DNA of 64,000 bases, taken from the human T2T-CHM13v2.0 reference genome, Homo sapiens. The translations under genes were made by a program, and so were the position numbers. Of the stretch, positions 11,750-62,032 are shown in pieces. The notes under the pieces were generated by a model. It saw only the letters and a list, made by a program, of their open reading frames with translations, was not told the origin of the DNA and made no database searches. The stretch lies in assembly GCF_009914755.1 (NCBI RefSeq), contig NC_060934.1; one strand, 5' to 3'. Every line of letters begins with the position of its first letter. Position 1 is the first letter of the stretch.

Positions 11750-12125
11750 ATGAAAACCCACATTAAGAAGCTCATATAAAAACAATCACCGTAATGACCT
11801 ATTGGACTCCCAAAGAAGAAAATTCCCACTGAAGAATTCATACACAAGATTTAAAAGAACAAGAGGAAATCCACCAGCAAAAAAGACAGACAATGCAGTA
11901 AATGGAAGAATTCACACTTAAAAGTGGTGAATATAGAATAATTTGAAAGAGACTTTATAAGTGTTTTTTAAAGTCCAGAGAAGTAAAGGAACAAACCCAA
12001 AAGTTAAAGGCATGACATTATTTTAAAAATAACAACCAGATTTGAGGATGAAAAAGAAATTCTATAAATTAAAGAGTCATTGAATCTTTTTATAAAGTTG
12101 ATAATAATGGTTAAATACTGGGCTA
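11750..12125 (+). mobile_element. Old L1M ORF1-region remnant (resumes ~13763-13860)
   Basis: A-rich degenerate ORF1-like sequence; atggttaaatactgggcta continues after the insert as gacagttactaagagagaagtaataagtttggaaaatag. Confidence 0.5.
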
Positions 12126-13690
12126 AGAGTACCTCTTATCCAAATGATCACAACAGCTCTCCAGCAAGGGCACAGAACTGGGCTGAGGCTGAGATGGATG
12201 AATTGACAGAAGTAGACTTCAGAATGTGGGTAAAACAAACTTCACTGAGCTAAGGAGTATGTTCTAACCCAATGCAAAAAAGCTGAGAACCGTGATAAAA
12301 CATTACAGGAGCTATTAACCAAAATAACCAGTTAGAGTGGAACATAAATGGCCTAATGGGGCTGAAAAACACAACACAAGAACTTCATAATGCAACAAGT
12401 ATCAATAGCCAAATAGACCAAGTGGAGGAAAGAATCTCAGAGCTTGAACACCATCTTGCTGAAATAAGACAGGAAGACAAGATTAGAGAAAAAAGAATGA
12501 AAAGGAATGAACAAAACCGCTGAGAACTATGGGATTATGTAAAAAGACTGAACCTATACCTGGTTAGGACACTCAAAGAGATGGGGAGAATGGAACCACG
12601 CCTGAAAACATACTTCAGGATGTCATCCAGGAGAACTTCCCCAACCTAGCAAGACAGGCCAACATTCAAATTCACGAAATCCAGAGAACCCTGGTAAGAT
12701 ACTCCATGAGGAGATCAACCACAAGACACATAATCATCAGATTCTCCAAGGTCAAAATGAAGGAAAAAAATGTTAAGGGCAACCACACCAAAAGACCAGG
12801 TCACCTACAAAGGGAAGTCCATCAGACTAACAGCAGAATTCTCAGAAGAAACCCTACAAGCCAGAAGAGATTGTGGGCCAATATTCAACATTCTTAAAGA
12901 AAATAATTTCCAACCCAGAATTTCATATTTGGCCAAACTAAGCTTCATAAGAGAAGGAGAAATAAATGCTTTCCATACAAGCAAGTGCTGAGGGAATGCG
13001 TCACCACCAGGCCTGCCTTGCAAGAGCTCCTGAAGGAAGCATTAAATACAGAAAGGAAAAGCCATTACCAGCCACTATAGAAACACACTGAAGTACACAG
13101 ACCAATGACACTATGAAGCAACTACATTAACAAGTCTGCAAAATAACCAGCTAGCATCATGATGACAGGATCAAATTCACACACAAAAATACTAACCTCA
13201 AATATAAATGGGCTAAATGCCCCAATTAAAAGACACAGAATGGCAAGCTGGATAAAAACTCAAGAACTATCAGTGTGCCGTATTCAAGGGGCCATCTCAC
13301 ATGCAAAGACACACATGGGCTCAAAATAAAAGAATAGAGAAAAATTTACCAAGCCAACAGAAAGCAGAAAAAAGCAGGGGTTGCAATTCCAGTTCCTGAT
13401 ATAACAGACTTTAAACCAACAAATATCAAAAAGACAAAGAAGAGTGTTACATAATGGTAAAGGGTTCAATTCAACAAGGGCTGACTATCCTAAATATATA
13501 TTTACCCAATAAAGGAGCAACCGGGTTTATAAAACAAGCTCTTAGAGACCTACAAAGAGACTTAGACTCCAACACAGTAATAGTGGGAGACTTTAACACC
13601 CCACTATCAACATTAGACATATCATAGAGACAGAAAATTAACAAAGATATTCAGGACCTGAACTCAGCTCTGGATCAAGTGGACTTGAAA
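12126..13690 (+). mobile_element. L1PA internal fragment: most of ORF1 plus the ORF2 endonuclease N-terminus, no 3' UTR
   Basis: ORF1 peptides RRSTTRHIIIRFSKV and QVTYKGKSIRLTAEFSEETLQARR; ORF2 ATG at 13162 (atgacaggatcaaattcacac); IVGDFNTPL EN motif near 13580; stops and frameshifts. Confidence 0.93.
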
Positions 13691-15363
13691 CAGCCCCTCC
13701 CATCACAGGCCTGGAGGCCCAGAAGCAAAAAGTGGTTTTGTAGGATTTTGCATCTTAAAAAAAAATACTAGGCTAGACAGTTACTAAGAGAGAAGTAATA
13801 AGTTTGGAAAATAGAGCCCAAATACTTACAACACAGAGAAATAAAGCAAAAAACGTGGACAGAAGTGGGGTGTTTAAGTCTAAATCTTGTTGGTAACGGA
13901 TAGGGCAATCTAACCTTAACGAATGCTGTGACACCAGAAGACAGGCTGGCTGCTGGCTTAATTCAAATACCCTGAGAAGAAAGCACTGCTAAATGCAAGC
14001 TGGTCCCCATTTCAAATTGAACTTGGTGATCTCACCCACCTGCTTCATTGTTCAGGTTCCAGAAAACCCTCTCCACACTTCTCCTTCTCTTGTCTTGGCT
14101 GTGCTGTTAGTCCTATCTGCTGCTTCTGCTTGATACTTTAGATGTCAAATCCATAGGCTTGAGTCACAAATACAAAGCCATAAATTAACCTTCCTTTAAA
14201 TTCACCTAAAAGGATAGACTGCCCTAAATATGTCCATGAATGCTGGGTTTCAGGGCTGGATTCCATGGACCATGGATTTGTCCCATTGCAGCAGTTCTCA
14301 GTTTCATCTAACATAAAGAGACTTGTAAGGTCTTATGTGAACCAGCTCCTATAGTTTTTATGTCCCACATTTTTACTCTCTTTAATGAGTTTAAAATGTT
14401 CTAACCAGGCATACTTGCCTCTGAAAGAAATTCGGTGCCCTTATTTAGGAAGTCAAATGTATTTCTTTTTTTTTGCAAGGCTGGCACAATATAAAATGAC
14501 CCAAAACTTGGAGTCAGTCACATAAGGAAGGGCCAGGCCACATTTTAGAAGGAAAAATCAAAGAAGGCAAGAGGCAGCATCTGGGATCTATCAGTCTGCT
14601 TGCCAAGAAGAGGCAGGGAGCCTGCGAAGATGCAGAGATGCAGGATTATCAGCATTAGGACCAAGAGCATTGAATTGTTCTGCTTTGGAGAGGCTCAGAA
14701 GATGTTACAGTGGCAGCAGGGTATCAGAGCCAACAACACGCATCACTTTAGGACAGGTGACTGGCATCCCAATAAGAGTCAACAGGCACCCAGCAGGCAT
14801 GCCCCTGGATTACTCTTCCTTGGCAAAAACAGGTGTAATTAATGTATCACAAAAACTTCACATAATCCCAATATATATGATTCAGGGAGCATGAGGAGTG
14901 ATAGGGAAGTTAGGTATACCTGGGTATACCCATTGTTCAAGATAGGCTTTTTTGGTGGGAAAACTGAAGTTCCCAGCCCAGTGCTCCAGGTAGCCATTGT
15001 CAATCAAGCAACACAACTGTACTATATGATACTAAGTTGCCAACCAGGATGGATCTAGCTCTAATCTGATAATGTAGAAAAATACTACTAGCAAGTAAAT
15101 GTGACTTTAGATAGAATACCTCTTTGAAAATCAAAGCAAAGAAAATGTATTTTCAATTGGAAAGGGGAATTCTAAAAATTGAAAACATTCCTTATACTTT
15201 TATTGTATTTTTGAGTTTTAAAAATGATTTCCCATGCATGTTCTCATTTTATACTTCCAACAATTTTGTGGTAGGTACTGAAGTGTTATCTCATTTTGTT
15301 GATAAGTAAACCAAGAGACAGAAAGTTTCCATGACAAGACAAAGCTTGGAAGATTTAGCAAAT

Positions 15364-15445
15364 GGTTCTGCATGGCTGGGGAGGGTTCAGAATCATGGCG
15401 GGAGGCGAAAGTCACTTCTTACATGGTGGCAGCAAGAGAAGAAAA
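15364..15445 (-). mobile_element. Isolated ~80-bp THE1C LTR internal fragment
   Basis: gcatggctggggagggttcagaatcatggcgggaggcgaaagtcacttcttacatggtggcagcaagaga. Confidence 0.8.
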
Positions 15446-15877: not shown

Positions 15878-18160
15878 TATATTCATTCGTTTTCACACTG
15901 CTGATAAAGACATACCTGAGACTGGGAAGAAAAAGAGGTTTAATTGGACTTACAGTTCCACACGGCTGGGGAAGCCTCAGAATCATGGCAGGAGGGGAAA
16001 GGCAGTTCTTACATGGTGGCAGCAAGAGAAAATGAGGAAGAAGCAAAGCAGAAACCCCTGCTAAACCTATCAGATCCTGTGAGACTTATTCACTGTCACG
16101 AGAATAGCATGGGAAAGACCAGCCCCTATGATTCAATTACCTCCCCCGGGGCCTCTCCCACAACATGTGGGAATTCTGGGAGATACGATTCAAGTTGAGA
16201 TTTGGTGGAGACACAGCAAAACCATCTCATTCCACCACTGGCTCCTCCACATCTCATGTCCTCACATTTCAAAACCAACCATGCCTTCCCAACAGTCCCC
16301 CAAAGTCTTAACTCATTTCAGCATTAAGCCAAAAGTCCACAGTCCGAAGTCTCATCTGAGATGAGGCAAGCCCCTTCTGCCTATGAGCCTATACAATCAA
16401 AAGCAAACTAGTTACTTCCTAGATACAGTGGGGGTACAGGTATTGGGTAAATACAACCATTCCAAATGGGAGAAATTGGCCAAAACAAAGGGGCTACAGG
16501 GCCCATACAAGTCCAAAATCCAACCGGGCAGTCAAACTTTAAAGCTCCAAAATGATCTCCTTTCACTCCAGGTCTCACATCCAGGTTACACTAATGCAAG
16601 AGGTAAGTTCCCATGGTCTTGGGCAGCTCCAGCCCTGTGGCTTTGCAGGGCACAGCCTCCCTCCTGGCTGCTTTCATGGGCTGGCATTGAGTGTCTGTGG
16701 CTTTTCCAGGCACACGGTTCAAGCTGTTGGTGGACCTACCATTCTGGGGTCTGGAGGACGGTAGCCCTCTTCTCACAGCTCCACTAGGCAGTGCCCCAGT
16801 AGAGACTCTATGTGGGGGCCCTGACCTCGGATTTCCCTTCTGCACTGCCCTAGCAGAGGTTCTCCATGAGGGCCCTGCTCCTGCAGTAAACTTTTGCCTG
16901 GGCACCCAGGCATTTCTATACATTTTCTGAAATCTAGGCAGAGGTTCCCAAACCTCAGTTCTTGACTTCTATGCAGCCACAGGCTCAACACCACGTGGAA
17001 GCTGTCAAGGCTTAGAGCTTCCACCCCCTGAAGCCACAACCCAAGTTCTACGTTGGCCCTTTTCAGCCACTGCTGGAGCAGCTGGGACACAGGGCACCGA
17101 GTCCCTAGGGTGCACACAGTAGGGGGACCCTGGGCCCAGCCTACAAAACCACTTATTGCTTCTGGGCCTCCAGGCCTGTGATGGGAGGGGCTGCCCTGAA
17201 GGTCTCTGACATGGTCTGGAGACATTTTCCCCATGGTCTTGAGGATTAACATTAGGCTCCTTGCTACTTATGCAAATTTCTGCAGCCAGCTTGAATTTCT
17301 CCTTAAAAAAAAACAAAACAAAACAAAAGAAAAAAACGGGTTTTTCTTTTCTACTGTATCGTCAGGCTGCACATTTTCTGAACTCTTATGCTCTCTTTTC
17401 CCTTTAAAATGGAATGCTTTAATAGCACCCAAGTCACCTTTTGAATGCTTTACTGCTTAGAAATTTCTTCTGCCAGATACACTAAATCATCTCTCTCAAG
17501 TTCAAAGTTCCACAAATCTCTAGGGCAGGGGCAAAACACCACCAGTCTTTTTGCTAAAACATAAGGAGAGTCACCTTTGCTCTAGTTCCCAACAAGTTCC
17601 TCATCTCCATCTGAGAGCACTTCAGCCTGGACCTTATCGTTCATATCACTATCAGCATTTTTGTCAAAGCCATGCAATGAGTCTCTAGGAGGTTCCAAAT
17701 TTTCCCACATTTTCCTGTCTTCTTCTGAGCCCTCCAAACTGTTTCAACCTCTGCCTGTTACCCAGTTCCAAAGCTGCTTCCACATTTTGGGGTATCTTTT
17801 CAGCAGTACTATATTAGTTCATTTTCACACTGCCGATAAAGACATACCCGAGACTGGGAAGAAAAAGGGGTTTAATTGGATTTACAGTTCCATGTGGCTG
17901 GGGAGGCCTCAGAATCATGGCAGGAGGCAAAAAACACTACTTACATCGTGGCAGCAAGAGAAAATGAGGAAGAAGTGAAAGCAGAAACCCCTGATAAACC
18001 CATCAGAACTCGAGACTTATTCACTACCACAAGAATAGCATGGGAAAGACTGGCCCCCATGACCCAGTTACCTCCCACTGGGTCCCTCCCACAACACGTG
18101 GGTATTCTAGGAGATACGATTCAAGTTGAGGTTTGGTGGGGACAGAGCCAAACCGTATCA
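15878..18160 (-). mobile_element. Full-length THE1C MaLR: LTR 15878-16229, internal 16230-17809, LTR 17810-18160
   Basis: Two ~350-bp LTRs with THE1C-type aagaaaaagaggtttaattggacttacag; typical THE1-int; 5-bp TSD GGCAG at 15873-15877 and 18161-18165. Confidence 0.93.
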
Positions 18161-18859: not shown

Positions 18860-18976
18860 TCTCTCTCTCTGTCTGTCCTTCCCTACCTCCCTTCTCTCTC
18901 CCTTTTCTCTCTGTCTCCTCTTTCTCTCCCTCACACACACACACTCACACACTCACAAATACACACTCACACACAT
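18860..18976. repeat. CT-rich and CA-rich microsatellite
   Basis: Seen directly. Confidence 0.85.
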
Positions 18977-19702
18977 GCAGTTTAACCCCCACAGCCACTG
19001 AGAGGGAAAGAGCTGACTCTTCCACCCAGTGTCCACCCACACACCTGAAACCTTCCGACAACCTGCCTCTAGTATCTGAATTCTTGGTTAATGAGCTCTT
19101 GGCTTCAGCCTCAAAAGAAAGAATCAGACATTTTGTAAATATGATGACTTTGAATAAAACTTTTAGGACCTCGAACTCTTTTCCTGAATGCCAAAGCCAC
19201 TACCTAGTCACCCCTCAGCTGTGCCCACAGGTTCCTATAGAGAGTCTGAGCCCCAGCCATTCCTGACCCCCAACCTCCTGGGTGATTCTACATTTTCAAA
19301 TAGAAATTTCAGTGTTTCCCTTAGAATTCGGAATCTTTCCAATTTATCTTTCTAAGCTATAGTTTGCCCCCTAAGATATATATATTTAAATTTTTTAAAG
19401 AAAATTTAGTCATCTCAGTCTGTTTTAGTCCAGGCTTCATACAGAAGAGTTTCAGCCTGAAATCACTGAAAAATCTGTGTCCCATAAAAATGACAAGCCA
19501 CTCAAGACCTTGCATGGTCCCAGAGTACCATCTAGTGACTAAAAGTTGAAATGACGGCCTCCAAATCTTTACTGACACTTTTTCCTGCAAAAAGCCATGC
19601 AGAGAAAGCATGCTTGTTCTTGCTCTCATCAGAGTATCAGATTAGGTGGTCACAGCACCCACGTGCATGGTGAACTATGTGGGGTGGCTGTGGGAGTTAA
19701 AC

Positions 19703-19738
<36 letters not shown>
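19703..19738. repeat. (TG)n(CG)n microsatellite
   Basis: tgtgtg...tgcgcgcgcgtgt. Confidence 0.9.
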
Positions 19739-19739
<1 letters not shown>

Positions 19740-51375: not shown

Positions 51376-51627
51376 AATCACTAAAACATTAATATAGACT
51401 AATTTTAATATAGAATAATATATTTTCATAACATATATAAATATATTAATATAGAATAATATATTAATATATTCATAACATATATAAATATATTAATATA
51501 GAATAATATATTAATAACATATATAAATATATTAATATAGAATAATATATTATTAATGTAGAATGATATACTTAGTCTATATTAATAAATATTCTGTATT
51601 AATATGTTCCATATTGTTTTAGTGATT
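51376..51627. repeat. AT-rich minisatellite (~40-47 bp units) bracketed by inverted repeats
   Basis: taacatatataaatatattaatatagaataatatatta x3; arms aatcactaaaaca/tgttttagtgatt and attaatatagactaa/ttagtctatattaat. Confidence 0.85.
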
Positions 51628-62006: not shown

Positions 62007-62032
62007 CTTGCATTAAGTATACTTAATGCAAG
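62007..62032. repeat. Perfect 26-bp palindrome
   Basis: cttgcattaagta|tacttaatgcaag. Confidence 0.95.

What the first reader, a model, noticed from the sequence alone, without database searches (positions are those of the whole stretch)
12113..13775. Chimeric insertion: internal L1PA fragment fused to a 54-bp inverted copy of the neighbouring THE1C interior
Seen: the L1PA piece (12126-13690) lacks both ends and stops in the endonuclease domain. It is followed immediately by 13691-13744, which matches the reverse complement of 17140-17193 in the THE1C internal region 3.4 kb away at 53/54 nt. Then come attttgcatctt and a 9-A run. The unit is bracketed by aaatact(g/a)ggcta (12113-12125 and 13763-13775) within an older L1M. 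Inference: identity this high is beyond what old paralogous THE1 copies usually show, so the local provirus probably served as template. Candidate mechanisms are non-classical L1 capture at a break with a templated insertion, or an RT template switch onto a local transcript.
Basis: partly seen in the sequence, partly recalled or inferred. Interest (0 to 1): 0.72.

Follow-up and report, generated by a model that had tools for sequence, protein, structure and literature searches.

The report
Old LINE-1 with patched deletion scar
A 54-base piece copied from a neighbouring retrovirus-like element sits inside an old LINE-1 fragment, most likely as the patch of a later deletion that borrowed two nearby DNA scraps, which is an ordinary, known kind of complex human deletion rather than a new kind of jumping-gene chimera.

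Summary
The sequence anatomy is confirmed, and so is the local template. The 54-mer matches the THE1 copy 3.4 kb away at 53/54. Of the 20 closest relatives, the nearest differs at 5 positions. Two bases shared with the local copy occur in 0 of 19 relatives that cover them.

The one-step chimera reading fails on timing. The L1 piece is old: about 6.7% on its own branch, and no donor above 88% in three searches of 321-1565 nt. The THE1 is as old (LTRs differ 46/350). The copy differs 1/54 (Fisher p=0.007), so it postdates the L1 insertion.

So the L1 once ran further.

Best reading: an ordinary TSD-flanked L1 later lost 1.1 or 3.5 kb in a complex deletion with two template switches, the published 'Ins with MultiDup and Del' class. 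One oddity: the TSD's first 9 nt match L1 ORF2 5 nt from the second template, suggesting internal priming or homology-guided repair. No outgroup allele was available. Interest is low.

The parts
12113..12125 (+). Left target-site duplication, preceded by TT (endonuclease-like TT/AAAT site; consensus recalled). Its first 9 nt also occur in L1 ORF2, 5 nt after the second template
12126..13690 (+). Old L1 piece from early ORF1 into the ORF2 endonuclease region; 11-15% substitutions to the 14 best relatives held, own branch about 6.7%; last 2 nt (13689-13690) ambiguous
13691..13744 (+). Templated insert 1: 54 nt copied from the local THE1 interior (53/54)
13742..13754 (-). Templated insert 2: 13 nt matching, inverted and with one base fewer in a homopolymer run, L1 ORF2 about 1.06-1.10 kb past the break; first 3 nt overlap insert 1
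13755..13762 (+). TT plus 6 A: remnant of the L1 3' end and tail, or altered ORF2 sequence at an internal priming site (unresolved)
13763..13775 (+). Right target-site duplication (one substitution against the left copy)
17140..17193 (-). Template of insert 1 inside the THE1 internal region; the single difference (17155) lies on this copy, since relatives carry the insert's base
15878..18160 (-).

Best explanation
An old L1 fragment flanked by a 13-nt target-site duplication carries at its right end two short inverted copies of nearby DNA, most likely the scar of a much later internal deletion in which DNA synthesis likely switched templates three times. Step 1 (inferred from TSD and cut site): an L1, 5'-truncated early in ORF1, inserted by target-primed reverse transcription at about the time the THE1 did, or earlier. 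Step 2 (shown by shared rare bases): the THE1 accumulated its own mutations before it was copied. Step 3 (inferred): a stalled fork or break inside the L1 was resolved by template switching (FoSTeS/MMBIR or polymerase-theta-type repair; not distinguishable here). The strand left the endonuclease region, copied 54 nt of the THE1 on the opposite strand, moved by a 3-nt overlap to the opposite strand of L1 ORF2 for about 10 more nt, and rejoined just before the right TSD. The intervening L1 was lost. Two sub-variants remain: the L1 had a normal 3' end and lost about 3.5 kb (about 0.5 of total), or it had been internally primed at the ORF2 site that matches the target and lost about 1.1 kb (about 0.33).
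For: Template: local copy best of 40 scored of 568 candidates, 98% against <=95%. 20 copies picked by the neighbouring 881 nt differ from the insert at 5-10 positions; columns 33 and 36 are shared with the local copy and with 0 of 19 that cover them, column 52 with 5 of 20; column 36 with 0 of 28 best-matching copies. Timing: 1/54 against LTR-LTR 46/350, Fisher p=0.007, binomial p=0.004-0.014; 2 of 171 pairs of relatives have <=1 mismatch here. L1 non-CpG distance to relatives 0.094-0.130 against 0.099 for the LTR pair, and even along the piece. No donor: best 86% over 1565 nt, 88% over 321 nt, 87% over 351 nt. Second template: edit distance 1 in 7 of 23 relatives and 2 in 5 more; 1 of 1000 shuffles and 5 of 1000 window 13-mers reach 7 of 23. 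TSD 9-mer exact in the sense strand of 8 of 23 relatives, once each, at the same ORF2 site, 5 nt after the template in the 6 where both were found; 1 of 204 endonuclease-like 9-mers falls there. Class described in PMC4617611 section 9.
Against: The pre-deletion allele was not seen; no outgroup genome is held. The age contrast rests on 54 sites: the 95% interval of the copy's age is 0.4-75% of the THE1's residence, and the insert was noticed because it is so similar. The first junction has no microhomology and the third at most 1 nt. The second template is short, needs a one-base gap, and is inferred from relatives; 11 of 23 show no match better than edit distance 3. Genome searches score only 40 candidates and state that absence is not proof. 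One short search (68 nt of conserved endonuclease sequence) gave 97% hits.
Confidence: 0.83

Rival explanations
1. One-step retrotransposition chimera: L1 reverse transcriptase started at the right TSD, copied a local THE1 transcript, and switched to an L1 RNA.
For: Both large pieces lie in RNA-sense orientation between one TSD pair with an A-run. Multi-template TPRT insertions with local rearrangement are described in cultured cells (PMC11702581, passages).
Against: The L1 piece is as old as the THE1 but the copy is young. An old L1 transcribed late needs a close donor and none was found. The 13-nt antisense L1 piece cannot be copied from sense L1 RNA. Described chimeras keep the L1 3' end with the partner at the 5' side (bioRxiv 2025.02.02.635956, passages); here it is the reverse.
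Confidence: 0.06
2. Non-classical, endonuclease-independent capture of an L1 fragment at a break with a templated local insertion, or a DNA-level copy from a donor now lost or missed.
For: The L1 piece lacks both ends and carries non-L1 sequence at its 3' side, as such insertions do (PMC5402677, passages).
Against: A 13-nt TSD and an endonuclease-like site are present; that class lacks both. No donor and no second junction copy.
Confidence: 0.05
3. The 54-mer was captured long ago, with the L1, and later homogenised with the local THE1 by gene conversion between the inverted copies.
For: It would explain an old L1 with a young-looking insert; the copies lie 3.4 kb apart.
Against: 54 nt at an expected 13% divergence is a poor recombination substrate (general knowledge, not tested). 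It still needs the antisense ORF2 piece explained.
Confidence: 0.04
4. Chance resemblance to any THE1 copy, or an assembly artefact.
For: THE1 interiors are abundant: 568 candidates for the 66-nt query.
Against: No other copy comes within 2 mismatches among the 28 plus 20 examined. One mismatch to the template and a separate L1-derived piece do not look like a mis-join. Reads were not available.
Confidence: 0.02

Closest known systems
Complex deletions 'Ins with Dup and Del' / 'Ins with MultiDup and Del' (Sudmant et al. 2015, PMC4617611, section 9 read)
   Same: Deletion of kb size with >=10 nt of inserted sequence copied from within 10 kb, two templated pieces, microhomology at a template boundary. 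That paper counts 501 and 191 such sites among 1,651, 53% with a local template, and notes inverted duplications under 1 kb within 5 kb of the other copy.
   Different: Here the deletion is inferred from repeat relatives and dating, not from two alleles; it lies inside an L1 and spares both TSDs, so it mimics a chimeric insertion. Whether it is polymorphic is unknown.
FoSTeS / MMBIR and polymerase-theta templated insertions
   Same: Serial short template switches, inverted local templates, 0-3 nt overlaps (FoSTeS and MMBIR named in PMC4937565 passages; the rest recalled).
   Different: The enzyme cannot be told from sequence; a 3.4-kb reach is longer than I recall for typical polymerase-theta templates.
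Internally primed (tailless) L1/Alu insertions (PMC5322556 and PMC5402677, passages; Srikanta 2009 seen only as a reference)
   Same: TSD present and the target site matches an internal A-rich stretch of the RNA over 9 nt.
   Different: A short A-run is present, and the adjoining bases fit an L1 3' end at least as well. It would explain only the original end, not the THE1 piece.
U6/L1-type chimeric retrocopies (bioRxiv 2025.02.02.635956, passages)
   Same: Two unrelated sequences between one TSD pair, same sense.
   Different: L1 is the 5' partner and has no 3' end, the pieces differ in age, and a third antisense piece is present.
Non-classical (endonuclease-independent) L1/Alu insertions
   Same: Fragment truncated at both ends with extra sequence.
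   Different: TSD and endonuclease-like site are present.

Membership tests
Complex deletion, Ins with MultiDup and Del | Deletion relative to a pre-event allele | not testable with these tools
   No outgroup or second haplotype held; loss of ORF2 inferred from the inverted piece
Complex deletion, Ins with MultiDup and Del | >=10 nt inserted between the boundaries | tested here: met
   About 64 nt, 13691-13754
Complex deletion, Ins with MultiDup and Del | Local template of >=10 nt within 10 kb | tested here: met
   53/54 at 3,395 nt, best copy found
Complex deletion, Ins with MultiDup and Del | Two or more duplicated pieces | tested here: met
   Second piece matches L1 ORF2 antisense in 7 of 23 relatives at edit distance 1; 1 of 1000 shuffles; template itself no longer present
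Complex deletion, Ins with MultiDup and Del | Microhomology at template boundaries | tested here: inconclusive
   3 nt at junction 2, none at junction 1, <=1 nt at junction 3
Classical TPRT L1 insertion (original event) | Target-site duplication | tested here: met
   12/13; 3 of 1500 random pairs
Classical TPRT L1 insertion (original event) | Endonuclease-type cut site | tested here: met
   TT/AAAT at 12111-12116; consensus recalled
Classical TPRT L1 insertion (original event) | Intact 3' end with poly(A) | tested here: inconclusive
   3' UTR absent; CTT+A-run resembles the end of 1 of 2 relatives whose end was seen, of 4 fetched
Internal priming insertion | Target site matches an internal stretch of the RNA at the 3' break | tested here: met
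   9-nt exact in 8 of 23 relatives at one ORF2 site
Internal priming insertion | No poly(A) tail | tested here: inconclusive
   6 free A's precede the TSD
Non-classical L1 insertion | No TSD and no endonuclease site | tested here: not met
   definition from PMC5402677 passages
Non-classical L1 insertion | Truncated at both ends | tested here: met
L1 template-switch chimera (U6/L1 type) | L1 3' end retained with the partner at the 5' side | tested here: not met
   definition
L1 template-switch chimera (U6/L1 type) | All parts inserted in one event (same age) | tested here: not met
   L1 own branch 6.7% against 1/54 for the copy
L1PA / THE1C / L1M subfamily names | Best match to the library consensus | not testable with these tools

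The most novel reading that the evidence does not exclude
A single germline L1 insertion in which reverse transcriptase, primed at a site matching L1 ORF2, copied antisense L1, then the transcript of the provirus next door, then L1 RNA: a three-template retrocopy that captured a neighbouring locus at its 3' end.
Probability: 0.06. Interest if true: 0.65.

Novelty: new member of a known kind. Interest (0 to 1): 0.24.

Why it matters
As read here it is one more complex deletion with local templated inserts, in a stretch with no annotated gene, and no function is implied. Its use is as a caution: a later deletion inside an L1 that spares both TSDs looks exactly like a chimeric retrocopy, and comparing the ages of the parts exposes it. 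The 9-nt match between the TSD and L1 ORF2 beside the second template is a small clue that an element's own target site can steer either priming or later repair. If the one-step reading were true, it would show L1 reverse transcriptase capturing a neighbouring transcript at the 3' end in the germline.

Tried and rejected
Local template for the 10-nt filler in the window: none exact outside the junction; 10 one-mismatch hits against 9.2 expected. Filler as the native L1 3' end: the two relatives' ends seen do not contain it; 2 of 4 fetched stretches missed the end. Donor L1: none above 88% in three searches. Second copy of the junction: none. L1M host: not confirmed by genome search, tblastn or Pfam. 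A younger segment within the L1 piece: none in 6 bins (that script ended with an error on an empty last bin, and its remaining lines were rerun). A listed polymorphism at this locus: 0 hits in the 1 supplementary file held for PMC4617611, using a coordinate estimated from a recalled gene position; its Tables 12-13 may not be in that file, so this is no evidence of absence. Abyzov 2015 and Srikanta 2009 are not held; nothing is taken from them. No literature search targeted this locus by name.

Full report
Observation. The window is human chr10. The 54 nt at 13691-13744 are the reverse complement of 17140-17193 at 53/54, with 3,395 nt between the arms. The L1 piece starts at 12126 and aligns to 23 fetched relatives up to 13683-13692. 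Its frames match L1 ORF1 domains above Pfam cut-off and the endonuclease family below cut-off (3 of 8 frames above cut-off). A 13-nt direct repeat with one mismatch brackets the unit, preceded by TT on the left; 3 of 1500 random window pairs give such a repeat. The THE1-type element spans 15878-18160 with two LTRs and a 5-nt TSD. The L1M host could not be confirmed.

The local provirus is the template. In a genome search the local copy was best at 98%, and the other scored hits were 91-95% (40 scored of 568 candidates). The 28 of these that I fetched have 3 or more mismatches. To avoid selecting on the 54-mer, I took the top 20 of 39 non-self hits for the neighbouring 881 nt (87-89% identity) and read their matching stretch. 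They differ from the insert at 5-10 positions, median 7. Insert and local copy share bases at columns 33 and 36 that 0 of 19 relatives carry (one has a gap), and at column 52 that 5 of 20 carry. At the single mismatch the relatives carry the insert's base, so that change arose in the provirus after copying.

The parts differ in age. The two LTRs differ at 46 of 350 sites. The L1 piece differs from its 14 best relatives by 11-15%, with a three-point own-branch estimate of 6.7% from the top 10. Without CpG columns the L1 distances are 0.094-0.130 and the LTR pair 0.099. So the L1 is about as old as the THE1 or older. Had the 54-mer been copied then, about 7 mismatches would be expected. One or fewer has p=0.004-0.014 (binomial) or 0.007 (Fisher), and 2 of 171 pairs among 19 relatives (one gapped row dropped) are that close. 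The point estimate puts the copy in the last 14% of the provirus's residence, with a wide interval of 0.4-75%. The shared rare bases say the same independently. An old L1 copied late would need a close donor. The best hits were 86% (1565 nt), 88% (321 nt) and 87% (351 nt); a 68-nt conserved stretch reached 97%. No second copy of the junction appeared. Each search scores only 40 candidates.

The filler is a second templated piece. It has no exact local source in the window. Positions 13742-13754 match the antisense strand of L1 ORF2 about 1.06-1.10 kb past the break, lacking one base of a homopolymer run. Edit distance is 1 in 7 of 23 relatives, 2 in 5, and 3-4 in 11. One of 1000 shuffles and 5 of 1000 window 13-mers of equal GC reach 7 of 23. 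Its first 3 nt are also the last 3 nt of the THE1 piece, with imperfect similarity beyond. This implies that the L1 once extended at least that far.

An oddity. The first 9 nt of the left TSD occur exactly, once each, in the sense strand of 8 of 23 relatives at one ORF2 site. It lies 5 nt after the second template in the 6 relatives where both were found. A Markov estimate gives about 4e-4 for a 20-nt window and 0.08 for anywhere in 3.5 kb; 1 of 204 endonuclease-like 9-mers from the window falls near that site. Two readings fit. The L1 was internally primed there, as described for tailless retrocopies (PMC5322556 and PMC5402677, passages), and later lost about 1.1 kb. Or it had a normal end, and the TSD-bearing broken end was drawn to this site by homology during repair, losing about 3.5 kb; the 3' end lay 3,467 and 3,477 nt past the break in the 2 of 4 fetched relatives that showed it (end motif recalled). 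The CTT plus A-run resembles one of those two ends, which slightly favours the second reading.

Mechanism. Shown: TSD, local template, shared rare bases, age contrast, antisense ORF2 match. Inferred: original TPRT insertion, later deletion, three template switches in one event, and the repair pathway. Not seen: the pre-deletion allele.

Known kin. PMC4617611 (passages and section 9) groups 1,651 complex deletions, mean 3.1 kb: 501 with a duplicated insert, 191 with two or more, 871 with a template within 10 kb, attributed to template switching. It also reports inverted duplications under 1 kb within 5 kb of the other copy. This locus fits on every feature I could test except microhomology, which is clear at one junction of three. 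Non-classical insertions lack TSDs. U6/L1-type chimeras keep the L1 3' end. Multi-template TPRT products exist in cultured cells (PMC11702581, passages), which keeps the one-step reading alive at low odds. PMC4937565 (passages) names FoSTeS and MMBIR. Other papers were seen as listings only; one search returned none. A supplement search found nothing in the one file held and is not evidence of absence.

Verdict. Real feature, correct template, wrong event structure: a new member of a known kind. Interest 0.24.

Noticed in passing
window 15365-15440: Isolated 76-nt piece of THE1-type LTR, 84-88% to both local LTRs, with unrelated flanks, about 440 nt left of the provirus. Could be an older templated scrap or a remnant of another copy.
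   Followed up: partly
window 18943-18998 and 19684-19739: Inverted arms, 56 nt at 80%, made of a CA/TG run plus a short non-repetitive stretch, 685 nt apart.
   Followed up: no
window 51440-51608 and 62007-62032: An imperfect palindrome (73%) and a perfect 26-nt palindrome.
   Followed up: no
window 11760-12112 and 13776-13900: Flanks look like decayed ORF1 of an older L1 from recall, but no tool confirmed it and neither flank has a genome paralog at this sensitivity.
   Followed up: partly
L078 (G000:C8:118552800-118553450): An L1 relative appears interrupted by a MaLR-type LTR at the place where its 3' end was expected (identification recalled).
   Followed up: no
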